Virus record (IMG/VR): IMGVR_UViG_3300013121_000038
Location: 38,312-102,311 of that record
Reading direction: 5' to 3' (one strand)
Source: a virus
Taxonomy: Duplodnaviria > Caudoviricetes
DNA length: 64,000 bases
A program made the position numbers and the translations under genes. A model generated the notes under the pieces. That model worked only from the letters and a program-made list of their open reading frames with translations. It searched no databases and was not told where the DNA came from. Shown piece after piece: positions 35,583 to 54,183 of the stretch (its first letter is position 1; each line of letters begins with the position of its first letter).

Positions 35583-35666
35583 GGTTCTTGAATCCTTCCA
35601 TCTAAGAAGAGCACATTCTCTTCTTCTGTTTTCTTATCCCACAGCCAGACAGCGATTTGCTGCGCC

Positions 35667-36113
35667 TCAGTTCTTCATCGAGGAGCCCAGGTTCATCATC
35701 GACAGCATCGGGTCTCCCAGGAATGTGTCGATGTTCTTCACCATCTCCTTCGAGTCGACGCCTGCGTCGAGCAAAGCATCAAGCTCTACCTTGTACGTCT
35801 GAGTGGCGATGATGGTGCAGAGCTTCGGGCAGCACGTGATGTAGTCCTCCTTCATCATCGTGCCATCCTGGCTGATTGAGATCTTCACGACTTGGCAGAT
35901 GTTCCGTACCTCACGGTGCGCCCGGTAGATCTCCAGTGCCACACCCTCTTGCTTCTTCATGCCCGTCGCCAGGTTGGCAGCGGACAGCACCATCTTCACG
36001 GACTCCAACACCTTCTGCATCCCCTCGATCTTGGACGCCTTCGTGTTGTGTGGTGACGACAGGTACGACTGGCACTCGTTCTTCGCCTTCTGCACAGCGT
36101 CGTCGAGAAACAT
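35667..36113 (-). CDS. Hypothetical protein
   Basis: GGAGG RBS before ATG 36113. Confidence 0.65.
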   Translation of the reverse strand: MFLDDAVQKAKNECQSYLSSPHNTKASKIEGMQKVLESVKMVLSAANLATGMKKQEGVALEIYRAHREVRNICQVVKISISQDGTMMKEDYITCCPKLCTIIATQTYKVELDALLDAGVDSKEMVKNIDTFLGDPMLSMMNLGSSMKN

Positions 36114-36127
36114 GTCGCCTCCCACAA

Positions 36128-36256
36128 GCTAAGAAACGGCGCCAGTTAACCAGGCTGGCGCCGGAGCAGAGAGTTCCCTCTTCACGGCAGTCCGGGAGGA
36201 ATGCGCCGGCGGCATGGCGCGCCGGTTTTTGCGCTCAGAGTTACGGTCCCTGCTCA
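36128..36256 (-). ncRNA. Candidate small RNA (~125 nt)
   Basis: Bounded by the promoter motif (36262-36289) and a hairpin-TTCTTAGC terminator (36128-36163); GAGCAGGG/CUCUGCUC closing stem; no RBS-led ORF. Confidence 0.5.
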
Positions 36257-36380
36257 CCTGTCTTATCCCTTTCCCAAGAGCATTGTTGCATACGAGCTAA
36301 AAGAAGCCGAAGGGGAATGTGCCCCATCGGCCTCCGGGCCCGGAACCGCACTTGGGAGCGCGGTGACGACCAGACCCAAG

Positions 36381-36497
36381 CTACTTGAAGAGACGGTGCC
36401 TCTCGGACCAGACGCACCACACCGCCCAGACTCCGACGCACAACCAGAAGAAAGCCATCATGGTAATCCTCCCGTATCTTCTTGTGCCCTTTTTCAT
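36381..36497 (-). CDS. Short membrane peptide
   Basis: MKKGTRRYGRITMMAFFWLCVGVWAVWCVW... Confidence 0.35.
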   Translation of the reverse strand: MKKGTRRYGRITMMAFFWLCVGVWAVWCVWSERHRLFK

Positions 36498-36574
36498 GGT
36501 CGAATTGCTAAGAGTGAGAGAGCCATACGGCCCCGACGTCCCCCTCGCATGAGGACGTCGGGGCTGCACAAGCC

Positions 36575-37144
36575 CTACTCGGTCTTGGGCTTGTCCGGGT
36601 TGCCAGGCGGCAGCAGAGCCGCCCTGAAGGACGGGGCGATGAGCCGGTTGGCCTGCTGCTGCGCCCTCGGCAGCCACTCCTTGTAGGGCTTGGCCTCGGC
36701 GGTGTCGGGGATGGCGTCCTGGTCGATCGACTCGATGATCTCGGAGAACTTCTTCGACGCGCTGGCGATACGCGCCGCCTGCGTGGCAGCAGGCCCCTTG
36801 GTCATGTCGAGATCGTCGACGGTGGCGCGCATGCCGAGGCCGACCTTCGAGATGATGCGTCGGCCGTACTTCTTGAGCAGGATGTTGCGCGCCGTGCTCT
36901 TCAGCTTCTTCTTGCAGAACTCCACATCATCGGAGTCGGCACGCGGCCGCGTCCGCAGCCCCATCGCGCTGTAGGCGATGTCGACGAGGTTCTTGAACGC
37001 GTAGGGGTCGTGCCGTGCTGCCCAGTCGAGGTAGTGCGCGATCGCCTCGGCGAGGTTCAGGTCCGCTGGCTTCTTGTAGTCCGGCGCAGTGGACCGCCGC
37101 TTCGTGGTCTCGTTCTTGGTCACTGAAGGCTCCATCCTATCCAC
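36575..37144 (-). CDS. Hypothetical protein
   Basis: 189 aa basic protein with coding-like codon bias. Confidence 0.7.
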   Translation of the reverse strand: MDRMEPSVTKNETTKRRSTAPDYKKPADLNLAEAIAHYLDWAARHDPYAFKNLVDIAYSAMGLRTRPRADSDDVEFCKKKLKSTARNILLKKYGRRIISKVGLGMRATVDDLDMTKGPAATQAARIASASKKFSEIIESIDQDAIPDTAEAKPYKEWLPRAQQQANRLIAPSFRAALLPPGNPDKPKTE

Positions 37145-38042
37145 CCTTCTGGAGTTGAGAGTTGTACCGCTCCAAGGTCAAGTAGCTGTGCATAACCGAC
37201 TCGAAGAGCTCGGAGGTGTCTCCGTGCGTCTTGTCCGGATGATACTCGTTGGCCAGACGCCACTTGTTCCTCTTGGCCAGGTGCAGGTCCGCCGGCTTCC
37301 CGTTCGGCGGCGGGTCCATCCCCAGCGTGGAACAAGCCTTCTCGACCTCGTCCTTCGACACCGACTCCTGCTTGTCCATCTTCGCCACATGCTCGTCGGT
37401 CTCCATCGCCTTGGCGAGGCTGTCTCTGAAGTCGCGAGCCACGATGCGGAGCATCACCAGCAACTCGCGTTCCAGTGTCGTGTGTACGACCGGATCGGAG
37501 TATGCCAGCTCCTTCTTCAGGAACTTCTCGGTGCGCGCCTTGATGTCGGCCCAGAAGATCGCGCTCTCGGTCGCCAGCTTCTCAGGAGACTTCCTAGGGC
37601 TTCTCCTCTTGCGAGTGAGGTGCTTCTGCCCTGCGATGCGGTACGGAACCCCGGACCTCGACATCCTGATGTACGGGAGCTGGTCGTACTCCTTCAGCGC
37701 CTCGTTCAAGACGTCAGCGACCTGGCGGTTGGTGCTGAGTGCCTTGATCCGAGCCTTCATGATCATGCTGGCTATGGATGAAGTGGTCATCTTCTTCTCG
37801 TCGAGTCTCCTCCAGAACTCTTCTACCCCATCACCGATAGAGAGCAGCATGCTGCGAACACGGAAGTCACGCTGAGCCACGCCAGGGATGTTCGCAGCGA
37901 ACCACTTCTCTCCAGAGAGTGGACCGTTCCATCCGCTGCTGACAACCTTGACCCACAGCTCGTGCTCCAACATCGCCCGCTCTCGCTGAGTGGCGTAGTC
38001 GGCAAGAGCGATGTGCTCGGCGATCAACTCTTGCAGTGTCAT
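37137..38042 (-). CDS. Protein with a C-terminal J-domain (DnaJ-like)
   Basis: ACSTLGM...KRNKWRLANEYHPDK...FESVMHSY-x2-L; HPD motif intact. Confidence 0.75.
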   Translation of the reverse strand: MTLQELIAEHIALADYATQRERAMLEHELWVKVVSSGWNGPLSGEKWFAANIPGVAQRDFRVRSMLLSIGDGVEEFWRRLDEKKMTTSSIASMIMKARIKALSTNRQVADVLNEALKEYDQLPYIRMSRSGVPYRIAGQKHLTRKRRSPRKSPEKLATESAIFWADIKARTEKFLKKELAYSDPVVHTTLERELLVMLRIVARDFRDSLAKAMETDEHVAKMDKQESVSKDEVEKACSTLGMDPPPNGKPADLHLAKRNKWRLANEYHPDKTHGDTSELFESVMHSYLTLERYNSQLQKGG

Positions 38043-38662
38043 GAGAGCTTCCTCACGATGTCTTCGAGCTTGCTTAGCAGCTCGGTCTGACGCTTCTCGA
38101 AACCCTCGAACATCTTCTTGATTTCGTCTACTCCTTCCCTCGTGTAAATGGTGGACTGCAAGGCGGTGTGCATCGTCTCGATGAGCTCCCCCAACAGGTA
38201 GTTCGTCTGTGCGAGGGAGTTCTTGTCGGCTGGAGGCGGCGGCACTTCGCCAGGCTTCGTTGGGATGTACGGCGCTGGGGCGAGGAACAACGTCTGCTGC
38301 CCGTTCTCTGGCTGAGTCTGGGCTGACGTCTTGGGTTGTGCCGGGGGGTCGACTGGCATCTGTGGCGGCACGTTCGACGGCCACACGAAGTCAGCGATGC
38401 TCTCGTCGCTCTCCAAGATGTCATCCAGCCTGTCGGCATCAGCTAAAACGTATTCAGCGGGCTTACCGACTTCTCCCGTCTCAGCCACCTTGCGAGCAGC
38501 GCCACACGCAACGAGGCTTCTGAGGACCCGGCGTTGGAAGACTCGATTGCCTTCCTCTTCCGGCATCCCCATGAAGAGCTCGTTGCGTGTGGCGACCTTG
38601 CCCTTGCGCAGCGTACGGAGAGCGCGACGGACGAATCCAAGACGCGCTGCCTCGTTCGCCAT
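38039..38662 (-). CDS. Putative winged-helix DNA-binding protein
   Basis: TRNELF...RRVLRSLV-x2-G-x3-KV...AEYVL pattern; C-terminal coiled coil. Confidence 0.5.
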   Translation of the reverse strand: MANEAARLGFVRRALRTLRKGKVATRNELFMGMPEEEGNRVFQRRVLRSLVACGAARKVAETGEVGKPAEYVLADADRLDDILESDESIADFVWPSNVPPQMPVDPPAQPKTSAQTQPENGQQTLFLAPAPYIPTKPGEVPPPPADKNSLAQTNYLLGELIETMHTALQSTIYTREGVDEIKKMFEGFEKRQTELLSKLEDIVRKLS

Positions 38663-38673
38663 GTGTCAGCCTC

Positions 38674-39183
38674 CTAGATCGCCGGCGGGGTGTACTGCTG
38701 CTTGATCATGAGCATGACGAACTTCTTCACCTTCACGATGCCCGCCTTGCCGTTCTTCTCCATGAACTGGTAGCGGCGGGCGATCTCGTCGCGCTGGCTC
38801 GGCACCTTCACCGCCTCGTGCGCGAACACCACCAACCGCTTGGTGGACGTGCCGACGTTGACGATGACGGTCTCGAAGACCGGGAACAGCTCCAGCGGCT
38901 GGTCCTTGATGAGCGCCGACTTCACGCTCCTCATGCGAGAGCGGAGCTTGGCGATCTTCGCGTTCTCGTACGCGTCGTTCTTGTCGACCTTCGCGATCGA
39001 CTCGAACAGCTTGGGGTAGCTCTTCCCCTTGTCTGCCTCCACCGCGTCCTTCATCTCCTGCGGTGTGGCGTCGACGTGCGCCGTCTTGAGCTTCGCCACC
39101 AACGTGGCGATCTCCAACCCGTAGTCCGTCGGTGCTTTCCCACGGATGTGGTCGAGCACGTACTTTGTCGTGATCTGTGCCAT
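38674..39183 (-). CDS. Hypothetical protein
   Basis: 169 aa, Lys-rich. Confidence 0.7.
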   Translation of the reverse strand: MAQITTKYVLDHIRGKAPTDYGLEIATLVAKLKTAHVDATPQEMKDAVEADKGKSYPKLFESIAKVDKNDAYENAKIAKLRSRMRSVKSALIKDQPLELFPVFETVIVNVGTSTKRLVVFAHEAVKVPSQRDEIARRYQFMEKNGKAGIVKVKKFVMLMIKQQYTPPAI

Positions 39184-39246
39184 AGCACTAAGAAGGCGCC
39201 CGAGCAGTCTCGGGCGCCTCCTCCTTTCAAGAGGGTTGGGTGTGCT

Positions 39247-39783
39247 CTACAGCTTGCCGCTGAAGACGCCAGCCACGCGGCGCGCCTCGAAGCCGTCCTC
39301 GAAGACGCTGAGCTTGTCGAGCCCCATCGACTTCATGAGCTCGACCATCTTCTGGCGCTCCTCGACGTCGAACTCCATGTTGACGTCGAGGATGAACACG
39401 GCCTTGTTCTTCTTGGCCATCTCCATGCGCCGGCGGATGTAGCCGGCCAGCTCCTCGGGCAGCGCCAACGCCACCTGGGGCGGCTGCTCCTTCGGCGCCC
39501 TCACCAGCCGCGCCGCCTGCCTGGTCGTGCTCTTGGCCTTCTTCTTCTCGGCCTTGACCGCCGAGTTGTACTGCGCCGCCCGGCTCTTCATCTGGCTGTT
39601 GGTGAGCCCGAGGTCGCGCGCCACCTTGGAGCACGTCTTCGAGTCCATGCCGCCCTTGAACTGCTTCCTCACCTCGGCCAGTGCCTGCTTCTTCGACTGG
39701 CCCAGCTTGAGCAGCTCGGTGTAGAGAGCGATCTTCTTCGCAGCCTTTTCCACCAGCTTCTTGTTGTTGCTCGGCATTCGCAT
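39247..39783 (-). CDS. Highly basic hypothetical protein, possibly DNA-binding
   Basis: Lys/Ala-rich; has its own promoter motif and terminator. Confidence 0.7.
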   Translation of the reverse strand: MRMPSNNKKLVEKAAKKIALYTELLKLGQSKKQALAEVRKQFKGGMDSKTCSKVARDLGLTNSQMKSRAAQYNSAVKAEKKKAKSTTRQAARLVRAPKEQPPQVALALPEELAGYIRRRMEMAKKNKAVFILDVNMEFDVEERQKMVELMKSMGLDKLSVFEDGFEARRVAGVFSGKL

Positions 39784-39889
39784 CCTCCCGGAATGGAAGA
39801 CTGAAAGACTCAGCCTTCACGTCTGTGGTCTTATCCCCTGACAGGGATGCCATTTGCCACGCGTGAGGGGACCTCTTAGACTGCGTTCC

Positions 39890-40180
39890 ATGAGCTCTGT
39901 CATGATGGCATCTGGCGACCCCAAGCCGTTCGGCTGGATCGCGGACCAGGTCTGGCACACCTCCAACAACCCATGGCTGCCGGCCGAGCCACAGCCATGG
40001 TATGTGCCGCAGACGATCGTGGAGCCTCAACCAGCACTGCCACCCATCGTCGTGATGCCCACCCAGGAGCTGGACGCTCTCAAGAAGCGTCTGGACGAGC
40101 TGGAGAAGGCCGTGAAGAAGCTCAGCCCGGTGAAGGAAGACGGCCCGGAGTGCGAGCCTGGTCGAGTGGTCGAGCTCTAG
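39890..40180 (+). CDS. Hypothetical protein (opposite strand to neighbours)
   Basis: Pro/Trp-rich N-terminus followed by a coiled coil. Confidence 0.5.
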   Translation: MSSVMMASGDPKPFGWIADQVWHTSNNPWLPAEPQPWYVPQTIVEPQPALPPIVVMPTQELDALKKRLDELEKAVKKLSPVKEDGPECEPGRVVEL

Positions 40181-40384
40181 GGCTAAGAAAGAGGCGGGGC
40201 GCTGTACAAGCCGCCCCGCCCGGTCTACTCCACTCGCTCTTTCTCTAGGTCGGAGAGGCTTCTCACCTAGTGACGTGAACGCAGCCTGAGAGCCTCCCCT
40301 ATCGCGTACGGTGTCAGAGGTTCTGGGCTTCAACCACCGAGCTTGTCGCTCAGCATCGCATCACTCCTCTCGTACCTCGTTCTA

Positions 40385-40522
40385 TCACCGCTCCTGCCTT
40401 GGCGGCTGGATGAGCCTCATCCGCTCGCGTAGCGCCGAGACCCCTAGCACGGCGGCGATGCCCATCAACAGCCCAGGCAGAACCCACTTCTCAGCGATGA
40501 TCTCGATCTTGATACCGAACAT
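40385..40522 (-). CDS. Short membrane peptide
   Basis: MFGIKIEIIAEKWVLPGLLMGIAAVLGVSAL... Confidence 0.45.
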   Translation of the reverse strand: MFGIKIEIIAEKWVLPGLLMGIAAVLGVSALRERMRLIQPPRQER

Positions 40523-40590
40523 GACAACTCGCTTTCTACGTCTCCCTGCTCAACCGCCAGAGGAGACGTAGTGCCTCAGCCGGCGCATGA

Positions 40591-40827
40591 TCACCTCCTT
40601 TCGTTAGGATCCCAGCCGTAGCCGTGCTCGGTCGCGCCGATGAACTCGCCCTCGTGGTTGACTGGGCGCCAGCTCCAGAAGTTGCTGAGCCCGTGCTCGC
40701 CCCAGTACTGCCCGCTGGTGATCTTCACCATGCGGCCATCGGGATGCTTGACGATGTCGCCCACCTTGAAGGGCGCACCACCAAGCACCTCTTCCGTCAT
40801 CTGCTTCACCCAGTTGGCGACTGGCAT
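40591..40827 (-). CDS. Hypothetical protein
   Basis: AGGAGG RBS; FKVGDIVKHPDGR SH3-like start. Confidence 0.65.
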   Translation of the reverse strand: MPVANWVKQMTEEVLGGAPFKVGDIVKHPDGRMVKITSGQYWGEHGLSNFWSWRPVNHEGEFIGATEHGYGWDPNERR

Positions 40828-40835
40828 GCGCCCTC

Positions 40836-41096
40836 CTAGGACATCTTGAAGCGACGCCACTTCATGTCCTCGCCGTCGTCGAGGAAGATGTGGAAGCCGT
40901 TGTGCTCGGTGTAGACGATGAGCCAGCCCTCGTACTTCTCGATCTCCGCGTTGTGGAAAGTGCAGGACGTGAGGTCGTGGTGCGTGACCGTGACGAGCCA
41001 CTTGAAGTTGCGCTCCGACGACATCTTGGAGTCCACTCCATAGGCGTGTTCCATGGCATGCCTGAATGGACTCACAGGCTTCTGTCTTCGCATCAC
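40836..41096 (-). CDS. Hypothetical protein
   Basis: Packed in the operon; start uncertain. Confidence 0.55.
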   Translation of the reverse strand: MMRRQKPVSPFRHAMEHAYGVDSKMSSERNFKWLVTVTHHDLTSCTFHNAEIEKYEGWLIVYTEHNGFHIFLDDGEDMKWRRFKMS

Positions 41097-41326
41097 TTGC
41101 CTCTCTTGCAGCGACAGTGGCCCTTCTTCGCCAGGTGATCATGGGCCATGTCGAGCTTGGTTGAGAACTTCTCCAAGTTCTCCAGCGTCTGCCTCTGCGA
41201 CAGCTCGTTGGAGATGTACTGGCCCTCGGTCGGTCCGAAGCCACGAGAGCACGTGAGAGTGATGAGCTGCTTGGCTTCCTCCTCATCCCCGACTGAGAAG
41301 ACGGGGAGGAAGCCCTTATCCGGCAC
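41093..41326 (-). CDS. Hypothetical protein
   Basis: Packed in the operon. Confidence 0.55.
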   Translation of the reverse strand: MPDKGFLPVFSVGDEEEAKQLITLTCSRGFGPTEGQYISNELSQRQTLENLEKFSTKLDMAHDHLAKKGHCRCKRGK

Positions 41327-41393
41327 ACGGCCGAATCGGACGACGACAGCTCAAAAGATCTTGATGGGCCCGTTGTCGAGCCGCTCACCGATC

Positions 41394-41618
41394 CTAGTGC
41401 CGATCATGGCTGATACGCTTTCCGTCTCTGCGCTCCTGCTGTCGCAGATACTTCTTGAGCCCGCTCTTGGCCCGAGCAGCACCTCGATGGCCGTTGGCGA
41501 AGTCGTTGCCGATCTGGGCTTGCACCACCGAGCTCGACAGCTTCCTGGTTCTGCGCAACATGGACGGATCTCTGAAAGAACCAGGATCCTTGTACCCACG
41601 TCTGTGGTTTGTCTTCAT
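41394..41618 (-). CDS. Small basic hypothetical protein
   Basis: AAGGAG RBS; Arg/Lys-rich. Confidence 0.6.
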   Translation of the reverse strand: MKTNHRRGYKDPGSFRDPSMLRRTRKLSSSVVQAQIGNDFANGHRGAARAKSGLKKYLRQQERRDGKRISHDRH

Positions 41619-41621
41619 GCT

Positions 41622-42002
41622 TCACTCCTTCCAGTACTTCGGCTTGCCTTCGATGAGTGCATCGAGGCGTTGGCGAGGGTCCCCCACGTCGCCGCCGTAG
41701 GAGACCACCACGGAGTCCAGCGCCTTGTTGATGTCTGGCTCGGAAGCCAGCGCTGCTTGCAGCTTGTCGAGTGCCTCACGGGCACGCTCTGGCTTGTACG
41801 TTCAAAGCTCAAGGAGGATGTGCGGCGGGCCGCACTCACCAGCCTCGAACTTCACCACGTTGTCGTCATGCTGGTACTGCTCCACTTGAATGCGGAGCTG
41901 GCCGAGCATATAGCCATAGACGACCAAGCACACCTTGCCGTCTTCGCTAGCCAGGAGGAGCTTCTGCGCCCCGTACGTCGGAGCTCTCTCTGTGAACTTC
42001 AT
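41622..42002 (-). pseudogene. ORF interrupted by one in-frame TGA at 41802-41804
   Basis: Reads ...ILLEL*TYKPERAREALDKL...KYWKE*; coding-like codons continue for 59 codons with no early restart. Confidence 0.5.
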
Positions 42003-42429
42003 CTGGCTTCTTCTCCTCGTCCTTGTGCTTGAGCTCGCTCGGGTGGTACTGGAGCACGCGCTGGAACTTCAGCGACCCCTCCTCGTTGTCGAACTTGATG
42101 AAGTGGATGGCGCGAGCCGGGTAGCCGCACTCGGCGCAGTAGCCTTCTCCGTGTGCCAGCCCCCAGGTGAAGGTGCAGCCGAGGATGTACGCCTCCACCA
42201 TGTCCTTGCCGACGAGACGCTCACCACAGCCGATGCACTTGTGGTCCACCATGGGGGTGAAGTGGTGGTAGTAGACGTCGAGCTCTGCGTTCAACTTCGC
42301 ACACAGCTCGATGGCCTCAGGAGCGGTCTCCCCATCCTTCACCGTCACGCCGATGCCAACGCTTGCCACAGTGGCATGTGGCAGGTTCTTCGCCCTCAGC
42401 TCGTTGAGCTTCTCCAGGGTCATCTTCAT
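41947..42429 (-). CDS. Zn-finger hypothetical protein
   Basis: CIGCG...FTWGLAHGEGYCAECGYPAR. Confidence 0.65.
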   Translation of the reverse strand: MKMTLEKLNELRAKNLPHATVASVGIGVTVKDGETAPEAIELCAKLNAELDVYYHHFTPMVDHKCIGCGERLVGKDMVEAYILGCTFTWGLAHGEGYCAECGYPARAIHFIKFDNEEGSLKFQRVLQYHPSELKHKDEEKKPDEVHRESSDVRGAEAPPG

Positions 42430-42653
42430 AGCTTCTTCTCCACACCTTCGGGTGGCATCCAGATGATGCAACCGCAGCGTCCCTCCCTGATGACGATGTC
42501 CGTTGAGCAGCAGTAGACGCGACACGCCTCGTTCTTGCTGTCGTGCTTCTTGATGCTGTCGGTGATGATGAAGATCAGCGCCAGGACGACGATGGTCGCC
42601 ATGAAGGCGAAGAGGGCAGAGTAGCTGTCCTTGAAGACTGGTCTCCAGATCAT
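42426..42653 (-). CDS. Membrane-anchored Cys-rich protein
   Basis: One transmembrane helix followed by C-x3-CC...CGC. Confidence 0.6.
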   Translation of the reverse strand: MIWRPVFKDSYSALFAFMATIVVLALIFIITDSIKKHDSKNEACRVYCCSTDIVIREGRCGCIIWMPPEGVEKKL

Positions 42654-42853
42654 GGCTTCTTGCCCTTCCTGAGCAGCTTGTCGAGCTCCATCGTTGCCTT
42701 GGCCAGCTTGGTGTACGCGTCGACGTCCACCGCCACGTAGTTCTTCGTCCCGTAGGAGCCGTGAACGCCTGACACCACGACGTTCACGGCGGCATGGTGG
42801 ACGTCGGCGAGGAGCTTGGTCTGTCTCATGACTCTCTTCCCTAGGAGTTCCAT
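42650..42853 (-). CDS. Hypothetical protein
   Basis: GGAGG RBS. Confidence 0.6.
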   Translation of the reverse strand: MELLGKRVMRQTKLLADVHHAAVNVVVSGVHGSYGTKNYVAVDVDAYTKLAKATMELDKLLRKGKKP

Positions 42854-42861
42854 GCTGCCTC

Positions 42862-43095
42862 CTACTTCTTGAGCTTCTTCACGAAGCGGCCGATGGCGAC
42901 GGCGAGGCCAACCGTCATCCGAGCCTGTCCGTCGTTGGGGTCGATGGCGTCGATTGCTGGTCTCACCACCGAGAGCAGCATCTGGAGCTCTCGGTGAGCC
43001 TTCGCCGCATGGCCGTGGTAGATCGAAGCCGGGTGAGAGATGGACTCCACCAAGTCCGACAGCGTCGGAACGATCTTCGATGGCTTGCGAGGCAT
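42862..43095 (-). CDS. Hypothetical protein
   Basis: Packed in the operon. Confidence 0.6.
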   Translation of the reverse strand: MPRKPSKIVPTLSDLVESISHPASIYHGHAAKAHRELQMLLSVVRPAIDAIDPNDGQARMTVGLAVAIGRFVKKLKK

Positions 43096-43680
43096 TTACT
43101 TCTTCGCCTTCTTGGCTGTCGTGAGGCGCTTCGGCTTCTCACCACGGCGGCGCAGGGCGATGAGCCTGAAGCCCTTCTTCTTGGCGAGCGTGTTGAGCTC
43201 CTCCACGCTGAGCAGGTGCGCTGTGGCGTGGATGAGCTTCTCGCTGACGTCGGTCGCCGGCTTGGGCGGCTCAGGAGGCGGCACGTACTCGTACTCCTCG
43301 ACCTTCTTGGCCTGGTTCTTGAGCTTCAAGACATTCGGCTCGGTCTTCTTGCCGTGGATGTCCTTGATCTCGGCGAGGCGGCGCTCCTTGCGCAGGATCT
43401 GCTGGATACCCTCCCAGCGGTAGAGCTCCTGCGCCACCTTGACGTCGTTCTTCGGGTCGTCGATGGGCAAGTGCATGAGCACACGAGCCGTGTTGCCGCC
43501 CACCAGCACCACAGCCGTGGTGTCAGCGTGGTGCGTCTCGACCACGTAGAGGCCGTGGCCGATGGGCTGGTTGTGGCTGCCCATCTGGATGGCGGTGTGG
43601 ATGAGCTCTCCCAGCTTGGTGTCCGCCTTGAGCTCACCAAGCAGGTCGTTGAGCAGGAACAGCGTTGTGTTGAGTCCCAT
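43096..43680 (-). CDS. Hypothetical protein
   Basis: GAGGAG RBS; MGLNTTLFLLND start. Confidence 0.65.
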   Translation of the reverse strand: MGLNTTLFLLNDLLGELKADTKLGELIHTAIQMGSHNQPIGHGLYVVETHHADTTAVVLVGGNTARVLMHLPIDDPKNDVKVAQELYRWEGIQQILRKERRLAEIKDIHGKKTEPNVLKLKNQAKKVEEYEYVPPPEPPKPATDVSEKLIHATAHLLSVEELNTLAKKKGFRLIALRRRGEKPKRLTTAKKAKK

Positions 43681-44081
43681 TACCCCTCCTCGGGATGGAT
43701 CTTGATGACGGCGTTGAACGGCATCTCCGCAGCGAGGTAGACGCTCGGGCCGAAGATGCTCATGAGCTCCCAGAGCTGCCACTTCGACCAACCATCAACC
43801 TCAGCGATGGGCTTGAGCTTGATGTCTTTCGGCAGCTTCAGCTCATCGTGGTACTTCTTCAGCAGCGCTCGTCCGTGATCGGTGAGCTTCACCGAGACGT
43901 AGCTGTTGATGTTGAAGAAGTTGTTCTTCTGCTCCTCTGCCAGTGCCTCTTCCACCGCCTTGCCGAAGATCATCGAGCGGTGCATCCACTTGATGACGTC
44001 TTCGGTGTCAGAGTCGAGGCCAGGGAAGGCCTTGACGTGCTTCACCAGCTCGGTAGACGACTTCTGAAGTGTGGTGCTCAT
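43680..44081 (-). CDS. Hypothetical phage protein
   Basis: FNINSYVSVKLT...WQLWELMSIFG domain. Confidence 0.65.
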   Translation of the reverse strand: MSTTLQKSSTELVKHVKAFPGLDSDTEDVIKWMHRSMIFGKAVEEALAEEQKNNFFNINSYVSVKLTDHGRALLKKYHDELKLPKDIKLKPIAEVDGWSKWQLWELMSIFGPSVYLAAEMPFNAVIKIHPEEG

Positions 44082-44413
44082 ATCTTCCCCTTGGTGATGG
44101 CAGACATCACCAGCTCGTGAAGGATCATTGCCAGATCTCGTCTGCTCTTCTCCAACGTCTTCGAGTCGGCGAGCTTCTTCGCCACCATGACCCACGCCTT
44201 CCAGAGCTCGGAGTCCGAGACATCTTCGTTCGTCTCACCATCGAGCGACGATACGGAGGTCGTCGTGCTGCCATCTTCGTTGCGGATGACCGAGACGACA
44301 ATGACGGCGTCGGAGCCAGTGAAGCCCTGTGCTTCGATCTCCTCCTTGGTGGCGCCGTCAGGGTCGTAGATGACCACGTGGCCTATCTTGTACCTCCGCT
44401 CGGTCTCGCTCAT
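44078..44413 (-). CDS. Hypothetical protein
   Basis: ATGA overlaps with both neighbours. Confidence 0.65.
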   Translation of the reverse strand: MSETERRYKIGHVVIYDPDGATKEEIEAQGFTGSDAVIVVSVIRNEDGSTTTSVSSLDGETNEDVSDSELWKAWVMVAKKLADSKTLEKSRRDLAMILHELVMSAITKGKI

Positions 44414-44610
44414 CGGATCAGGATCTCCAGAGAGATGGTGTAGCCGTGCTTCTTGGCGAACTCCTGCATCTCTTCCTTGTTGAAGTTGCAGTTGTAGTTG
44501 CCGCAGAAGTCAGTCACTGAGCCGTGGAAGAAGACAACAGGCTCCTTCCACGGGCTCCTTGGGTCACGTCCGAAGACGGTGACCATGGAGACTTCACTCG
44601 CCTCGAACAT
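44410..44610 (-). CDS. Hypothetical protein
   Basis: Packed in the operon. Confidence 0.6.
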   Translation of the reverse strand: MFEASEVSMVTVFGRDPRSPWKEPVVFFHGSVTDFCGNYNCNFNKEEMQEFAKKHGYTISLEILIR

Positions 44611-44611
44611 G

Positions 44612-44908
44612 CTAGCCCTTGCTTTCTGGCTGGTAGCTCTGGTTCCAGCGCACCCTGTCCATCGCGACTTCTCTCTCCAAGACGCCTGCCTCGATCATGG
44701 TGTTGAGCGTCTCGTAGAGAGCGTTGCCGAGTCGGTTGTTGGACCAGAAGATCCACTTGAAACCGTGCCAGCCATCGGTCGGTGGTGGAGGTTGTGGTGA
44801 GGTGAACTCAGGAACGAGGCCGAGCACGGTTGCGAGCTCGTACGCGGCCACGTCCCAGTCCTGCCAGTTCTTCAGCCTGTCCTTGAGCGTCAGCATGGGC
44901 TCAGGCAT
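44612..44908 (-). CDS. Hypothetical protein
   Basis: Trp-rich 98 aa protein. Confidence 0.6.
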   Translation of the reverse strand: MPEPMLTLKDRLKNWQDWDVAAYELATVLGLVPEFTSPQPPPPTDGWHGFKWIFWSNNRLGNALYETLNTMIEAGVLEREVAMDRVRWNQSYQPESKG

Positions 44909-45557
44909 CGGGGAGAAGGTCCCAGTCGTCGGCCCACTCGCTGTAGTCGATGCCGCTCGGCTTGGCCGGAGACGGCTTCGGCACGGTCTGGTTCATTGGC
45001 GCCGAGGTCAGACGCCCAGACTGCGTGGCAGGCGAAGAAGGAACAGGAGGCATCGAAGGCGGCGGCACAGGCGCCTGAGGCACGGGAACAGGAGCGTGAG
45101 TCGAGACCTGGATCACAGGCCACTTCTCGACCATCCTGCTGTTGGAGTAGTTGCCGTTGCAGGTGGGATCGCTGCTCCAGCAGCCCCAGTACTGCCAGGA
45201 CTCGTGATCCGAGTGGACCTGGTTCGCCGGGACAGTGCAGCGATGCCCCTGAGGCGACGGAGCAGCGCAGCAGTCCTTGGAGCCGAGCATCCGCCCAGGC
45301 GGCTTGGCGGCCATCGGAGGAGGCTGCGCGACAGCCGGCGGCGGGGCGTAGTTGACCACAGCAGCGGCGTTGGGCCACTGCTCCAGCATCCTGCCACGGA
45401 CGCTGTAGGCGCCGCCGCAGGTGGGGTCCATGCTCCAGCAGCCCCAATCCGGCCAGGCTTCGTGGAAAACGTGTCCGTGGCTGCGTGGGATGGTGCAGTT
45501 GCGGCCCTGAGGCGACTGGTCAGCACAGCAATCGGCGCGACGGAGCTTCACTGGCAT
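44901..45557 (-). CDS. Protein with two Cys/His-rich repeats and an acidic C-terminal tail
   Basis: Two copies of DCC...CT[IV]P...H-x2-HE-x-W-x3-GCWS-x-DP-x-C; ends IDYSEWADDWDLLPDA. Confidence 0.75.
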   Translation of the reverse strand: MPVKLRRADCCADQSPQGRNCTIPRSHGHVFHEAWPDWGCWSMDPTCGGAYSVRGRMLEQWPNAAAVVNYAPPPAVAQPPPMAAKPPGRMLGSKDCCAAPSPQGHRCTVPANQVHSDHESWQYWGCWSSDPTCNGNYSNSRMVEKWPVIQVSTHAPVPVPQAPVPPPSMPPVPSSPATQSGRLTSAPMNQTVPKPSPAKPSGIDYSEWADDWDLLPDA

Positions 45558-45569
45558 GGTCTTCTCCTC

Positions 45570-45839
45570 TCATGCGTCTGGTAGGTTGTCGAAATCATCA
45601 GCCCAGTCCGAGTAGTCGATCTTCGTCGGTCCAGGCAGCTTGTACTTGTCGTTCGGCCACATCTTGTTCATGTGCTGACCGAAGAGCGTGCCGCCGCAGT
45701 CTGGGTCACCAGACCAGCAGCCGAATGCAGTCCAGCTCTCATGCTCTGCGTGGTTGACGGTCTTCGGCACGGTGCAGACGTAACCCTGGCCCTTGATGAC
45801 GATGAGGGCCTGGCAGCAATCAGATGCGTCCATCCTCAT
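45570..45839 (-). CDS. Paralogue with one Cys/His-rich repeat and the same acidic tail
   Basis: Same motif once; ends IDYSDWADDFDNLPDA. Confidence 0.75.
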   Translation of the reverse strand: MRMDASDCCQALIVIKGQGYVCTVPKTVNHAEHESWTAFGCWSGDPDCGGTLFGQHMNKMWPNDKYKLPGPTKIDYSDWADDFDNLPDA

Positions 45840-45908
45840 TACCCCCAGCTCTTGATGTTGAAAGCTAAGAAGGCGGCCCGAAGGCCGCCCCCATGATGCC
45901 ACTGCCTG

Positions 45909-46109
45909 TCACTGCGCGGACACCTCGACCTCGATGTAGTTCTGGCCGAGCGGGATGGTGACGTTGACGACGCGACCGATGAAGGTCTGTCCGTCCACCA
46001 CCAGCGGTCCGATGTTCCAGCCGATCTGCACTGGCACGAAGAGAGGCAGGTTGAACGTCCTCGGTCCGTTCCTCGTGTTGACGGTGATGCGATGGTTGAT
46101 GGCTTCCAT
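45909..46109 (-). CDS. Small beta-rich hypothetical protein
   Basis: Single-gene cassette with promoter motif and terminator. Confidence 0.7.
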   Translation of the reverse strand: MEAINHRITVNTRNGPRTFNLPLFVPVQIGWNIGPLVVDGQTFIGRVVNVTIPLGQNYIEVEVSAQ

Positions 46110-46237
46110 GTGCGTCTCCCGACGTAGTAACTGAGCTCTTGCTTCTCCTTTCTTATCACTCGTACCGACTAAACCTTGCGAAGAGCTAAGACGACGGAAT
46201 GCTCTCCGTCGAATGCCCTCGCATGAGGGCGGATGCG

Positions 46238-46645
46238 TTACTTCAGAGCCGCGAGGGCGTCCCCGAAGATGCCGCGAGCCCACTCGATGGTCTTCTGCTT
46301 GGCCTGGATCGAGTCAGAGGCCTCGAACTTGGTCTCCATGACGAGCTCGGTGTCCTCGGCCGTGTAGAGTCCGGCGCGCCAGATGGAAGGCGTCTTCTTG
46401 GAGTCCGTGGCGTCGTCGTAGTCGAAGGAGAGCTCGAAGGCGCCGAAGACTGCCTTCTCGGCGCACTCCGTATCCCCCAAGTGGTCCTCCTCCCAGGTCA
46501 GCGGCAGGACGGTCGGCTTGGTCGCTTCCTGGAGCTTGTCCCAGAGCTCCCCGGCCTGCTTGACCTGCGCGTCCATGGGTCCGTAGCTGATGGACGAGAA
46601 GTTGGCGGCAAGGATGAACTGCGCGATGAACTCGTGCTTGGTCAT
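46238..46645 (-). CDS. Hypothetical protein
   Basis: Single-gene cassette. Confidence 0.7.
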   Translation of the reverse strand: MTKHEFIAQFILAANFSSISYGPMDAQVKQAGELWDKLQEATKPTVLPLTWEEDHLGDTECAEKAVFGAFELSFDYDDATDSKKTPSIWRAGLYTAEDTELVMETKFEASDSIQAKQKTIEWARGIFGDALAALK

Positions 46646-46711
46646 GTGTGTTCCCGGTCTAGAGGCAGCAGGAGTGCTGCTCACGCTTCTTATGCCCGGC
46701 TCGCCCAAGTT

Positions 46712-47372
46712 CTTGACGTCTTTATGACGCAAACACGTCAAGCATGACCTGACGCGTAGCTCATCCAGAACACGTCAAGCACGGCGCAAAGCCAGGCCTG
46801 CTCACCTTGCGCCGTTCTTCTCTCCTCCTCAGTTCGGCGCACCTTGAGGGGAGCATGAAATCCAAGGCACGCTCACACCCCCTATACAAGCAGAGCTCTC
46901 GTCCCGGCTTCACCCTCCTGCCATTGACGTCTTCTAGACATGAACGCGTCAAGGGTGGGGAACATGAGAACCAGAGCCCGAGACAGAGTCGTGTGAGAGG
47001 AGAGCGTAGCACCAGCGAGTCAGGCTTCTGGCCCCTCGTTCTCCACAGCCCTGCTGAAGTACCCCCGCTCCCTCCAGCATGCGGCCTCTGTGTAAGCCCT
47101 GCCGATGGGTCGGGAGAGCCAGGGTCAGCACATCATCGAGAACTTCTCCTGCTCCCCTTGCGCCGGCGCACTTGGGAGAACAAGCTCCTCGCCATACCTC
47201 GCCTGGCCCTAGGGCTATGAAGACTTGAAACACCGGGGTAGGGAGGGGGGACAGTGGTACCCAAGTTTTGGGGGGGATTTTGTAGGGACTGGTTCCCCAG
47301 GGCCAGAGAGACCAAGCACGCACCAAGATTTGGGGGGAGGTTTTTGGTACCAGCCACTGTGAACGCGTCAAG
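46712..47372. repeat. Non-coding island with repeated palindromic sites
   Basis: TTGACGTCTT-N3-GAC-N3-AAC-R-CGTCAAG at 46713 and 46924; AACRCGTCAAG also at 46769 and 47362; CCAA-N3-TTGGGGG at 47261, 47323 (and 47820). Confidence 0.7.
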
Positions 47373-47445
47373 TCGGTCCATGGGCTAAGCAAGCCCCGGA
47401 GGGCTGGCCCCCGGCCCTTGAGCCGGGAAGACGGTCCAGAACCTG

Positions 47446-47727
47446 CTACTGCCAGGTCTGGCACTTGGTGGACTGCATCTTGTTCAAGCACGCCACGCCG
47501 ACCTGGATGCCCTCCTTCTCGTAGTACGCCCGGCACTTCTCGAAGTTGGTCTGGCGGGGGTCGCAGTTGGCCTTGGTCTGGGCATCCGACCAGTCCATGT
47601 GGACCTTGGCGCAGCCGACGGAGACCATCTCCTTCTCCTGGGGCGTCAGGCGGGGGTCGCAGGCCAGGGTGGTGGAAGGGGTGAGAGAGCAGACAGCGAG
47701 AACCAGGGTGATCAGGATGGTCTTCAT
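47446..47727 (-). CDS. Secreted Cys-rich protein
   Basis: Signal peptide MKTILITLVLAVCS...; six further Cys; CDPR twice. Confidence 0.7.
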   Translation of the reverse strand: MKTILITLVLAVCSLTPSTTLACDPRLTPQEKEMVSVGCAKVHMDWSDAQTKANCDPRQTNFEKCRAYYEKEGIQVGVACLNKMQSTKCQTWQ

Positions 47728-47952
47728 GATGTCCTCCCGGACGTTGTGACGGAGGAAGTTCCCCGTCAGAGCCTTATGCCGGAGGGTGGTCTGGAATTGC
47801 TTCTCCCGACCCCTTGCGCCCAAATTTTGGGGGTACATACGAGGCCGGCCTCGGAAACGCTGCCTACAGGATCATGGGCTAAAAAAGCCAGGCCCGGGGA
47901 GCTCGGTCTGGCTTTCCTGGGTGGCCGCCCAGGACGGTCGGGGCTGGTGCCC

Positions 47953-48210: not shown

Positions 48211-48221
48211 GTGGGCGGGTC

Positions 48222-48467: not shown

Positions 48468-48567
48468 GTGCTTCTCCAGTGAAGCTGCCTGAGTGCCGCT
48501 TCATCTCCTTATGGCTAAGAAGCACGGAGGGATTGCCCCCGTGCCCGGCTCCGGAGAGCCAGGACGT

Positions 48568-49056: not shown

Positions 49057-49180
49057 GTGTACTGCCTCCCGTGAAGCCGGTTGGATTCCGGCCTATGGGC
49101 TTATGGCCTAAGACACCGGGGGATTGCCCCGGGCCGGCCTCGGAAGGCCGGAAGAAGACGTCCTGCGCCGTCTTCTCTTG

Positions 49181-49527: not shown

Positions 49528-49937
49528 GACTTCCTCCCGAACCGCCTCAGCACCGACTGGCCCTTGGCCGGACCCTTGGACCGCTTCGCCCGCCTGGGCG
49601 TCACGTCCCGCTGGAAGCGGCCACCCTGGACCATGTCGACCATGTCGCCGCGCGCCGCCAGCACCATGCCGAGGAAGGTGTCGGCGCGCTTCTGGGAGGG
49701 GTCGGTACCCCTGCCCAGCATCTCGCGGAGGGACAACGCCGTGAAGCGCGTCAGCACCTCCTCGACGACGACCTTCACCACCTCCGCCGTCTTGGCCGAC
49801 GGGTGGGTGGCATCCACCTCGCCCCGCAGCTTGTCCACCACGTCCATCAACGCCTGGGCCAACTCGTGGTCCGGCAGCGACGCCAAGAGAGCGTCAACCG
49901 GACCAGGACACTCAGGGTTGCCGCAACGATCGCACAT
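49524..49937 (-). CDS. Hypothetical protein
   Basis: MCDRCG-x3-C N-terminus; GGAGGAG RBS. Confidence 0.65.
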   Translation of the reverse strand: MCDRCGNPECPGPVDALLASLPDHELAQALMDVVDKLRGEVDATHPSAKTAEVVKVVVEEVLTRFTALSLREMLGRGTDPSQKRADTFLGMVLAARGDMVDMVQGGRFQRDVTPRRAKRSKGPAKGQSVLRRFGRKS

Positions 49938-51320: not shown

Positions 51321-51459
51321 ATCGATCCTCCCGGATCGGCGGAGCAGCGTCGAAAGACGCATCTTTCCGCTACACCCTTATCCCAGGGAGATCGCAGGAA
51401 TTGCCCTAAAACAGGGGGTTTCAGCTCCCCTGGGCGGCTCTCCGGCCGCCACGGTGTTT

Positions 51460-52787: not shown

Positions 52788-52989
52788 AAGTCCTCCCGGA
52801 CTCTTCTGCGAATGAGTGAACAGGAGGGGACTGCTCCCCTCCAGGACTGCGCGGCTCGCATGTCCGCACAGACGGAGCGCTCGTGGCTCCTCTGAACTTC
52901 TTATCCCTTCGGGAAGACGGACTTTGCTCCATTGGTGGTCTTGACTTTCACCTCTCGAAACGGCATCTCTCATCCAGCCCGGAGGATTC

Positions 52990-53941: not shown

Positions 53942-54183
53942 GATAGTCCTCCCGGACCAGACGGGGTTGGGTTTGGGTGCATCTTCCCGTCAACCCCTTA
54001 TGGCTGGATGAGGGTCTAAATTGCCCTCTGGGAGGCCTTTTGGAGGGTTTTACCCCGTGTACGGGCTAAAAAAGCACCCCCGGGCAGGACTGCCGGGGGT
54101 GCCACGGGCGCCTATGAATTACACCCAGACCGATTCCGGGTGCGCCGGGAGGCGGCGCCCACTGCAAAGGGTTGGAGGGGCTC

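What the first reader, a model, noticed from the sequence alone, without database searches (positions are those of the whole stretch)
36128..36289. Gene-less cassette: candidate sRNA complementary to the phage's own ribosome-binding sites
An exact promoter motif (36262-36289) and a TTAGC terminator (36128) enclose about 125 nt with no RBS-led ORF. A 5' GAGCAGGG can pair with CUCUGCUC before the terminator. The RNA contains UCCUCCCGGACU (36200-36189), the perfect complement of the RBS regions of - strand genes starting at 52787 (12 nt, 52791-52802), 47727 (11 nt, 47732-47742), 53941 (11 nt, 53947-53957) and 39783 (10 nt, 39783-39792). The match extends beyond the GGAGG core. Inference: a trans-acting anti-Shine-Dalgarno RNA that silences early genes or host mRNAs. 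It also sits directly upstream of gene 35667-36113, so it could instead be an attenuator leader.
Basis: partly seen in the sequence, partly recalled or inferred. Interest (0 to 1): 0.7.

Follow-up and report, generated by a model that had tools for sequence, protein, structure and literature searches.

The report
Phage RNA mirroring its ribosome sites
An uncultured phage and its relatives keep a folded RNA of about 126 bases with no conserved reading frame; one hairpin tip is the exact mirror of hairpins covering the ribosome-binding sites of five of the phage's own genes, so it probably silences them, though no expression data exist.

Summary
On the minus strand, 36128-36289 carries a phage-type promoter, about 126 nt with no conserved reading frame, and a GC-rich terminator with a UUUCUUAGC tail. 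The start of a 148-aa gene follows 14 nt later.

Four metagenomic relatives (58-81% protein identity in that gene) keep the whole unit. Each folds alone into the same shape: closing stem, second stem, and a three-way junction with a variable hairpin and a hairpin P4. Covariation supports the stems.

The flagged 10-mer UCCUCCCGGA is invariant, but it is not a linear seed. It is the top of P4: UCC/GGA paired, only the UCCC tetraloop exposed.

Each is the first gene behind a promoter of the same class, and each site can fold as the mirror hairpin UCC-GGGA-GGA.

Neither the 42-codon frame nor the plus-strand ATG is conserved.

- **Best reading (about 0.45):** a terminated leader transcript that blocks these sites in trans, like the UCCC-loop sRNAs of Firmicutes.
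- **Main rival (about 0.25):** a cis-acting leader of the 148-aa gene.

Expression is untested. This scan has noted similar anti-SD-loop RNAs in other uncultured phages.

The parts
36261..36289 (-). Promoter of the phage's GCAA-N17-(G)GGATAAGA class. The inferred transcription start is about 36255-36257.
   Evidence: One of 12 same-geometry motifs in non-coding gaps on the - strand. TGCAACA and GGGATAAGA are invariant in 4 relatives.
36128..36257 (-). Body of the RNA (about 126-130 nt), with no conserved reading frame.
   Evidence: Conserved in L002, L003, L004 and L125 with indels of 1, 2 and 4 nt. The 42-codon frame is broken in all relatives. No Rfam family matches.
36164..36255 (-). P1 closing stem: 36247-36255 pairs with 36164-36172. 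It encloses the junction domain.
   Evidence: Found in the MFE fold of every homolog. In helices 1 and 2, 4 of 8 pairs change on both sides.
36178..36240 (-). P3 stem: 36232-36240 (CUCUGAGCG) pairs with 36178-36186 (CGUGAAGAG). The window has a tandem G.A at a position that relatives fill with Watson-Crick or U.U pairs.
   Evidence: helix 3; 82% of cells paired.
36206..36225 (-). P2, a variable hairpin on the three-way junction.
   Evidence: The sequence differs in each lineage while the stem is kept (helix 4 has 3 pairs changed on both sides).
36187..36204 (-). P4 hairpin: a variable lower stem, an invariant UCC/GGA top (10-mer at 36191-36200) and an invariant UCCC tetraloop (36194-36197).
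   Evidence: The 10-mer is invariant in 5 sequences. Loop unpaired probability is about 1.0 and the UCC/GGA top is paired in every homolog. The lower stem covaries and includes G-U pairs that work only on this strand (helix 5).
36128..36163 (-). Intrinsic terminator: stem-loop 36137-36163 and tail UUUCUUAGC 36128-36136.
   Evidence: In helix 6, 4 pairs change on both sides. The U-rich tail plus UUAGC is kept in relatives.
35667..36113 (-). 148-aa gene of unknown function. Its SD (GGGAGG) begins 8 nt after the terminator tail and no promoter lies between.
   Evidence: There are 22 homologs. AF2 mean pLDDT is 86.5, with no family or fold match.
53947..53956 (-). Candidate target 1: SD hairpin GGUCC-GGGA-GGACU of a 92-aa gene (start 53941).
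   Evidence: local hairpin -8.0 kcal/mol; first gene behind promoter 54024.
52791..52800 (-). Candidate target 2: SD hairpin AGUCC-GGGA-GGACU of a 252-aa gene (start 52787). It has a 12-nt perfect match to the RNA.
   Evidence: (-8.0 kcal/mol).
51326..51335 (-).
   Evidence: (-9.8 kcal/mol).
47732..47741 (-). Candidate target 4: SD hairpin GUCC-GGGA-GGAC of a 93-aa Cys-rich gene with a hydrophobic N-terminus (start 47727).
   Evidence: The P4 of relatives L004 and L125 is a 17-nt perfect complement of this site.
39783..39792 (-). Candidate target 5: SD region UUCC-GGGA-GGAU of a 176-aa gene (start 39777).
   Evidence: (-4.2 kcal/mol).
49531..49545 (-). Weaker sixth candidate: the translation-initiation region of a 60-aa gene (start 49527). 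It pairs over 15 contiguous nt with the RNA if two G.U pairs are allowed.
   Evidence: (best RNAduplex energy, -28.3 kcal/mol).

Best explanation
The stretch encodes a conserved, structured RNA with no conserved reading frame.

**Proposed mechanism.**
- A promoter of the phage's own class starts transcription at about 36256.
- The RNA folds into a closed three-way-junction domain. This domain displays hairpin P4: an invariant UCC/GGA top and a UCCC tetraloop.
- Most transcripts end at the strong terminator at about 36131, giving an RNA of about 126 nt. The rest read through and serve as mRNA for the 148-aa gene.
- The terminated RNA acts in trans. Its UCCC loop contacts the GGGA loop of mirror-image hairpins that carry the Shine-Dalgarno sequence of five promoter-proximal phage genes (starts 53941, 52787, 51320, 47727, 39777). 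An 8-nt match extends this to up to ten genes whose SD is CGGGAGGA.
- Pairing then spreads through the complementary UCC/GGA tops to 10-12 bp or more. This covers the SD and lowers translation.

**Shown:** the sequence features, conservation, fold, covariation, complementarity and its enrichment.

**Inferred:** the transcript ends, trans pairing, and repression as the outcome.
For: - **A real conserved RNA.** The promoter, the 10-mer and the terminator are kept upstream of the homologous gene in four relatives whose gene product is 58-81% identical.
- **Same fold in each.** All five sequences fold independently into the same architecture.
- **Covariation.** On the model-based alignment, 86.6% of cells pair against 76.2% in shuffles. 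14 pairs change on both sides against 7.3. No shuffle of 500 reaches either value, and slid controls pair at 37-47%.
- **No conserved reading frame.** Frames are broken and indels are not multiples of three.
- **P4 is constrained at RNA level.** The 10-mer is invariant although the neighbouring P2 is unrecognisably diverged. The lower stem covaries with G-U pairs valid only on the transcribed strand.
- **Targets are enriched.** The exact complement occurs 6 times against 0.37 expected. Five copies are SDs placed 3-5 nt before a start codon. All five belong to the first gene behind one of the 12 promoters of this class.
- **Targets are hairpins too.** The five sites fold as GGGA-tetraloop hairpins of -4.2 to -9.8 kcal/mol. 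Three have 6-bp stems.
- **Pairing beats a flank-shuffled control.** RNAduplex of the P4 18-mer against 151 initiation regions gives 8 at or below -22 kcal/mol. Controls that keep CCUCC but shuffle the flanks average 2.0, and 3 of 100 reach 8. At -24 kcal/mol the figures are 6 against 0.55, reached by 1 of 100.
- **Cross-genome match.** The P4 of L004 and L125 is a 17-nt perfect complement of the gene-47727 site, better than either hairpin's own stem.
- **The downstream gene is not in the target class.** Its SD is UGGAGA in relatives, only 4 nt complementary, which argues against a purely cis role.
- **Precedent.** Unpaired UCCC motifs in hairpin loops of S. aureus Rsa RNAs and RNAIII bind SD sequences and block initiation (PMC2790875, read). 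Terminated phage leader transcripts can act as sRNAs (StxS; PMC7547250, abstract seen).
Against:
- Only 4 nt of the motif are exposed. A 4-nt tetraloop is a poor kissing partner, so the UCC/GGA tops of both hairpins would have to open.
- Full-length cofolding puts only four candidate sites (starts 49527, 39777, 52787, 47727) in the top 11 of 154. Unrelated sites score as well, and the two most stable target hairpins (53941, 51320) gain little.
- CGGGAGGA is the general SD of ten genes in this region. Part of the match therefore follows from any anti-SD sequence, and the flank-shuffle control gives only about p = 0.01-0.03.
- Target sites could not be examined in any relative, because all recovered contigs are short or lack DNA.
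- The RNA always sits directly before the same gene, which has no promoter of its own. That is also what a cis-acting leader looks like.
- In more distant homologs of the gene the leader changes. L126 keeps a C-rich apical loop, L147 has none, and L148 has only a short ordinary leader.
Confidence: 0.45

Rival explanations
1. Cis-acting leader. The folded domain plus terminator is a regulated 5' leader (attenuator) of the 148-aa gene. A phage or host factor would bind the junction domain or the P4 hairpin and set how much transcription passes the terminator. On this reading the resemblance of P4 to the SD hairpins is secondary.
For: - The gene's SD starts 8 nt after the terminator tail, with no promoter between, so its expression depends on read-through.
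- The RNA-gene arrangement is kept in all four close relatives. In altered form (leader plus terminator) it is also kept in L126 and L147, at 37-39% protein identity.
- Junction nucleotides are conserved (AAC, GCGUAAA, GGA), as in ligand- or protein-binding RNAs.
Against: - No conserved antiterminator or alternative pairing with the terminator's 5' arm was found. The only candidate, P2, differs in sequence in every lineage.
- No riboswitch or leader family matches, even at E up to 10.
- P4 pairs with only 4 nt of the gene's own SD in relatives.
- L148 has the gene behind an ordinary short leader, so the gene does not need the element.
- This reading does not explain why the invariant 10-mer is the exact complement of five other SD hairpins.
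Confidence: 0.25
2. General anti-SD RNA aimed at the host. The UCCC hairpin binds SD sequences of host mRNAs or otherwise interferes with host translation. The match to the phage's own sites would then reflect only shared SD chemistry.
For: - CCUCCC is complementary to any strong SD.
- The scan has noted similar anti-SD-loop RNAs in other uncultured phages without defined phage targets (unchecked notes).
Against: - The invariant block extends to UCC...CGGA, which is not part of SD/anti-SD pairing. It matches a phage-specific SD hairpin class exactly.
- The host is unknown and no host sequence could be tested.
Confidence: 0.1
3. Stabilising 5' structure plus chance. The element is only an enlarged version of the 5' hairpins that follow every promoter of this class. 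The complementarity has no function.
For: - All 12 promoters are followed by a 5' hairpin.
- P1 starts at the predicted 5' end, like those hairpins.
Against: - A stabiliser does not need an invariant 10-mer, a conserved junction and an internal strong terminator.
- The 10-mer is enriched 6 against 0.37.
- P2 shows how fast unconstrained parts diverge.
Confidence: 0.1
4. DNA-level operator. TCC-N4-GGA with palindromic flanks is a binding site for a dimeric DNA-binding protein, and it occurs six times in either orientation.
For: The six sites are the same double-stranded 10-bp sequence and have partly palindromic flanks.
Against: - Stem positions use G-U pairs that would be A.C on the other strand. 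They are therefore neither DNA palindromes nor pairable on the opposite strand.
- The central 4 bp is asymmetric yet invariant.
- Five sites sit exactly at SD distance from start codons, 60-110 bp downstream of promoters.
Confidence: 0.05
5. Small protein gene: either the 42-codon frame from GTG 36257 (a leaderless mRNA) or the plus-strand ORF 36201-36686.
For: - GTG or TTG is kept at the predicted 5' end in all relatives.
- GGGAGGA precedes the plus-strand ATG at 36201.
Against: - The sense frame has stops within 5-9 codons in every relative.
- Indels of 1, 2 and 4 nt are present.
- The plus-strand ATG is TAC, CAC or CAT in relatives and has no spacer after the SD.
Confidence: 0.02

Closest known systems
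UCCC-motif / C-rich-loop base-pairing sRNAs of Firmicutes (S. aureus RsaE and other Rsa RNAs, RNAIII hairpins, prophage-encoded SprX; PMC2790875, PMC4005690)
   Same: - A 5' stem and a 3' intrinsic terminator.
- A conserved unpaired UCCC in a hairpin loop, in the most conserved part of the RNA.
- Complementarity to SD sequences of several mRNAs.
- The expected effect is a block of initiation.
- RNAIII likewise meets SDs that sit in hairpin loops of its targets.
   Different: - No sequence or structure homology (Rfam: nothing).
- Encoded by an uncultured 63% GC phage.
- A single tetraloop of only 4 nt.
- The targets are the phage's own genes, and each carries a mirror-image hairpin with identical closing pairs.
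- Expression and pairing are untested.
Terminated phage leader transcripts that act as sRNAs (StxS from PR'-tR' of Shiga-toxin phages, PMC7547250; lambda 6S RNA, from general knowledge)
   Same: A promoter is followed after about 75-200 nt by a terminator, and the genes behind it depend on read-through. The short terminated RNA is a regulator in its own right.
   Different: - No Q-type antiterminator or qut-like site was identified.
- Only one small gene lies behind the terminator.
- The proposed targets and the seed are unrelated.
P1/P7 c4 and P4 CI antisense RNAs (from general knowledge; not re-read here)
   Same: A phage RNA made from the leader of an operon that pairs, through exposed loops, with ribosome-binding-site regions of phage mRNAs.
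   Different: - c4 and CI are cut out of the transcript and act on sites in the same operon.
- Here the 3' end is a terminator, and the sites lie 3.6-18 kb away in five other transcription units.
T4 RegA (translational repressor) and RegB (SD-cutting nuclease) (from general knowledge)
   Same: One phage factor addresses a class of phage initiation regions that share a sequence signature.
   Different: Those factors are proteins. Here the proposed factor is an RNA.

Membership tests
UCCC-motif base-pairing sRNAs (RsaE/RoxS, RNAIII-type) | A conserved UCCC/C-rich motif in an unpaired position | tested here: met
   The UCCC tetraloop is invariant in 5 sequences, with an unpaired probability of about 1.0 in each.
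UCCC-motif base-pairing sRNAs (RsaE/RoxS, RNAIII-type) | Complementarity of the motif to SD regions of several mRNAs | tested here: met
   10 nt or more to five phage SDs and 8 nt to ten. This exceeds flank-shuffled controls.
UCCC-motif base-pairing sRNAs (RsaE/RoxS, RNAIII-type) | A discrete small transcript that is actually made | not testable with these tools
   A promoter motif and a terminator are present, but sequencing runs could not be searched.
UCCC-motif base-pairing sRNAs (RsaE/RoxS, RNAIII-type) | Homology to a described family (covariance model match) | tested here: not met
   No Rfam match at gathering score, nor at E up to 10. It works like these RNAs but is not a member of their families.
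Riboswitch / transcription attenuator | An intrinsic terminator between the promoter and the regulated gene | tested here: met
   Terminator 36137-36163 plus a U-rich tail, 14 nt before the ATG at 36113.
Riboswitch / transcription attenuator | A conserved alternative (antiterminator) pairing that competes with the terminator | tested here: not met
   None is conserved. P1 and the terminator are adjacent but do not overlap, and the only complementary segment (P2 in the window) is unrelated in relatives.
Riboswitch / transcription attenuator | A match to a known aptamer class | tested here: not met
   Rfam gives no match.
Type III toxin-antitoxin (ToxIN-like) | Order of promoter, RNA, terminator, protein gene | tested here: met
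Type III toxin-antitoxin (ToxIN-like) | The antitoxin RNA consists of tandem direct repeats | tested here: not met
   No tandem repeat in 36050-36350, even at minimum score 30.
Type III toxin-antitoxin (ToxIN-like) | The protein belongs to a ToxN/CptN/TenpN-type endoribonuclease family | tested here: inconclusive
   No Pfam, PHROG or PADLOC match. Fold search found no match above the noise level, with best Z 7.6.
Lambdoid PR'-tR' leader RNA (StxS / 6S) | A short terminated transcript ahead of genes that need read-through | tested here: met
   Sequence anatomy only.
Lambdoid PR'-tR' leader RNA (StxS / 6S) | A Q-type antiterminator acting at the promoter | not tested
   No search for a Q homolog was made. 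The neighbouring proteins have no family match.

The most novel reading that the evidence does not exclude
The phage runs an RNA-based translational regulon. One terminated leader RNA carries a UCCC-tetraloop hairpin, which may have arisen as an inverted copy of an initiation-region hairpin. It co-ordinately shuts down five to ten promoter-proximal genes whose Shine-Dalgarno sequences sit in matching GGGA-tetraloop hairpins. Regulator and operators would then co-evolve between related phages. This would be an RNA counterpart of the T4 RegA/RegB control of early messages.
Probability: 0.3. Interest if true: 0.65.

Novelty: new member of a known kind. Interest (0 to 1): 0.5.

Why it matters
Regulatory RNAs of virulent and uncultured phages are poorly known, and very few have a defined set of phage targets.

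This case offers three things together: a conserved RNA, an invariant 10-nt element, and five matching operator-like hairpins in the same genome. That makes a concrete experiment possible, namely loop-swap compensatory mutations.

If confirmed, it would show that phages can time or balance a class of their own genes by RNA-RNA pairing at ribosome-binding sites. It would also give a compact orthogonal pair (a UCCC hairpin against a GGGA SD hairpin) for translational control.

If the cis reading is right instead, the element is a new leader/terminator module of unknown input.

Tried and rejected
**Searches for relatives that found nothing**
- Phage-record searches found no relative.
- IMG/VR protein or DNA pattern scans found none.
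The 80 listed loci (L005-L084) that were screened had no promoter or terminator context.
- The scan of prokaryote genomes gave 17 hits, all inside unrelated coding regions.
- An alignment of 21 homologs was too diverse for a locus scan.

**Target sites in relatives could not be checked**
- The two closest homologs of target genes, and the two long contigs of relatives, had no DNA available.
- L128 and L149 turned out to be unrelated genomic contexts.

**Other attempts**
- The covariance model did not reach the diverged elements of L126 and L147. Those were compared by eye and by folding.
- Full-length cofolding did not single out the candidate targets.
- Fold and family searches for the 148-aa protein and for the target proteins gave nothing usable. 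A Z 6.9 resemblance to a HEPN toxin was set aside: the score is below noise level, and the family alignment shows no invariant or near-invariant Arg or His, which the HEPN R-x4-6-H motif would need.

**Rejected readings**
- Coding readings.
- Type III toxin-antitoxin.
- A classical riboswitch.

Full report
**Context**

The window is bases 38312-102311 of a 102-kb IMG/VR virus record of 63% GC that is estimated to be about 55% complete. Large plus-strand frames, probably the structural genes, fill 1-34400. Short minus-strand cassettes fill the rest. Neither the phage-record collection nor IMG/VR holds a relative.

**The observation**

On the minus strand, 36261-36289 reads GCAA-N17-GGGATAAGA. 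The same geometry occurs 12 times in non-coding gaps between 35632 and 54899. Each copy is followed by a 5' hairpin and then a ribosome-binding site.

After this particular copy there is no gene for about 126 nt. A 9-bp GC-rich hairpin (36137-36163) and the tail UUUCUUAGC (36128-36136) close the unit. The SD and the ATG (36113) of a 148-aa gene follow directly.

With one mismatch allowed, the 12-mer or its complement occurs five times in the window against 0.72 expected. The exact 10-mer TCCGGGAGGA occurs six times against 0.37 expected. Five copies are SD regions of minus-strand genes that start 3-5 nt downstream, at 53941, 52787, 51320, 47727 and 39777. The sixth copy is the antisense of the RNA itself.

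**Conservation**

The 148-aa protein has homologs in metagenomes. Short contigs were recovered for four close ones:

| Locus | Protein identity |
|---|---|
| L002 | 81% |
| L003 | 65% |
| L004 | 61% |
| L125 | 58% |

All four carry the whole unit upstream of the gene. The invariant parts are:
- the promoter boxes;
- UGAG at the 5' end;
- AAC-CU, GCG-AAA and CUCCGG;
- the UUAGC tail;
- the full 10-mer UCCUCCCGGA.

A hairpin between these blocks (P2) has an unrelated sequence in each lineage. Unconstrained positions have therefore diverged freely.

Gaps of 1, 2 and 4 nt separate the sequences. The 42-codon frame that spans the unit in the window is broken by stops after 5-9 codons in every relative. 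The plus-strand ATG at 36201 is TAC, CAC or CAT in relatives. Both coding readings therefore fail.

**Structure**

Each homolog, folded on its own, gives the same architecture:
- P1, a closing stem made of the 5' end and the segment just before the terminator;
- P3, a second stem;
- a three-way junction carrying the variable hairpin P2 and hairpin P4;
- the terminator.

I built a covariance model from the alignment and my structure and used it to realign the five sequences. On that alignment:

| Measure | Observed | Shuffled |
|---|---|---|
| Cells forming standard pairs | 86.6% | 76.2% |
| Pairs changed on both sides | 14 of 38 | 7.3 |

No shuffle of 500 reaches either observed value. Sliding the partners by 1-3 columns drops pairing to 37-47%. 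With only four really distinct sequences this is modest but consistent support. The alignment was fitted to the structure, which favours it.

No Rfam family matches, even at E up to 10.

**The 'seed' is a hairpin top**

In all homologs UCC pairs with GGA and only UCCC is exposed as a tetraloop. The unpaired probability of the loop is about 1.0, and the flanks are paired.

Below the invariant top, the stem changes in each lineage:

| Sequence | P4 lower stem |
|---|---|
| Window | GCAUUCC / GGACUGC |
| L002 | GUAUCC / GGAUGC |
| L003 | GUGUCC / GGAUAC |
| L004 | GAUGUCC / GGACGUC |

It uses G-U pairs that exist only on the transcribed strand (helix 5). This argues for an RNA-level function and against a DNA palindrome.

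**The targets are mirror hairpins**

The five SD sites can fold as xxUCC-GGGA-GGAxx. Local energies are -8.0, -8.0, -9.8, -6.1 and -4.2 kcal/mol. Three have 6-bp stems, again with G-U pairs in the mRNA sense.

All five belong to the first gene behind a promoter of the same class, so 5 of 12 such cassettes are involved.

More widely, CGGGAGGA is the SD of ten genes in the 36-55 kb region, with 4-7 nt spacing. A sixth site, at start 49527, pairs over 15 nt if two G.U pairs are allowed.

**How much of this is chance?**

I ran RNAduplex of the 18-nt P4 segment against 151 initiation regions. The control kept the CCUCC core and shuffled the flanks.

| Threshold | Observed | Control mean | Controls reaching it |
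|---|---|---|---|
| -22 kcal/mol or lower | 8 | 2.0 | 3 of 100 |
| -24 kcal/mol or lower | 6 | 0.55 | 1 of 100 |

The excess over a generic anti-SD is therefore real but moderate.

Cofolding the whole RNA with 55-nt target segments does not single out the candidates. Four of them gain 8-15 kcal/mol, but so do some unrelated sites, through GC-rich parts of the RNA. The two most stable target hairpins gain little.

One cross-genome observation is suggestive. The P4 of L004 and L125 is a 17-nt perfect complement of the window's gene-47727 site. The intermolecular duplex is fully Watson-Crick at a position where the RNA hairpin has a U.G pair and the target hairpin a C.A mismatch. I could not recover the corresponding gene from those phages.

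**Cis or trans?**

Points for a cis role:
- The 148-aa gene has no promoter of its own and must be expressed by read-through.
- The RNA-gene pair is kept in all close relatives.
- L126 (39% identity) keeps a promoter, closing stems, an apical C-rich loop (CCU-CCCU-AGG) and a terminator.

Points against a purely cis role:
- No conserved antiterminator exists.
- The gene's own SD is not of the target class, with only 4 nt complementary in relatives.
- L147 has a leader with a terminator but no C-rich loop, and L148 has an ordinary short leader. The gene therefore does not need the element.

The protein gives no help. The AF2 model is confident (pLDDT 86.5), but no family or fold match rises above noise. 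There are no tandem repeats, so this is not a type III toxin-antitoxin system. The target proteins have no family either.

**Best reading**

The unit makes a stable RNA of about 126 nt, a terminated leader. Its UCCC hairpin meets the GGGA hairpins at the SDs of five or more phage genes and, after the tops open, covers the SD.

This is how unpaired UCCC motifs of S. aureus Rsa RNAs and RNAIII act (PMC2790875). Terminated phage leaders acting as sRNAs are known from StxS (PMC7547250).

I put this at about 0.45, the cis-leader reading at about 0.25, and the remainder on host targeting, a mere stabiliser, a DNA operator or a coding frame.

Shown: the sequence, conservation, fold, covariation and enriched complementarity. 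Inferred: the transcript ends, trans pairing and repression.

**Novelty**

In mechanism this is a new member of a known kind, the C-rich-loop anti-SD sRNAs and leader-derived phage sRNAs. Its unusual feature is a defined set of mirror-image operator hairpins in the phage's own genome.

Other agents of this scan have noted anti-SD-loop RNAs in several other uncultured phages (unchecked notes), so the general theme recurs. The explicit hairpin-to-hairpin match to five own genes is what sets this case apart.

Noticed in passing
window 36381-36461 (-), with flanks 36295-36540: A separate mini-cassette lies just upstream of the RNA. It has a variant promoter (GCAA-N17-GGCACAAGA), the SD ACGGGAGGA, a 26-codon frame for a very hydrophobic Trp/Cys-rich peptide, and its own terminator with a UUUUAGC tail.
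   Followed up: no
window 35632-54899 (-): There are twelve promoters of fixed geometry, GCAA-N17-NNNATAAG(A/G). Each is followed within about 10 nt by a 5' hairpin, often purine-rich on the 5' arm and CU-rich on the 3' arm, before the SD. The promoter is not sigma-70-like, and neither the host nor the polymerase is known.
   Followed up: partly
window 36474-54839 (-): Ten genes of the minus-strand region share the SD CGGGAGGA with 4-7 nt spacing. Only two other plus-strand copies of this 8-mer exist in the 102-kb record, neither tied to a checked gene start. The C before GGGAGG is not explained by pairing with a usual 16S 3' end.
   Followed up: partly
L004:110-135 and L125:303-328 versus window 47727-47744: The P4 hairpin of two relatives is a 17-nt perfect complement of the window's gene-47727 initiation region, reaching to within one base of the AUG. 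This hints that regulator and operator co-evolve.
   Followed up: partly
window 35600-35632 (-); also L002 about 1140-1170 and L125 about 890-920: The next cassette (promoter 35632-35660) starts with a hairpin AAGAAGAG...CUCUUCUU followed by AG. It looks like a terminator placed right after a promoter, and it is conserved in relatives. It may end transcripts of the 148-aa gene while also capping the next mRNA.
   Followed up: no
window 35667-36113 (-): The 148-aa protein family has 22 metagenomic homologs. Its confident AF2 model is two long N-terminal helices, a four-stranded sheet and C-terminal helices. It has no Pfam, PHROG or PADLOC match and no PDB fold above noise.
   Followed up: yes
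L147:2085-2200: In a 37%-identical relative of the 148-aa gene, the leader keeps the promoter, stems and terminator. Its apical loop, however, carries GAAGGGA (SD-like) instead of a C-rich motif.
   Followed up: no
G000 about 37000 (window coordinate about -1311, + strand): The only other copy of TCCGGGAGGA in the 102-kb record lies outside the window on the plus strand. It was not checked whether it sits at a gene start.
   Followed up: no
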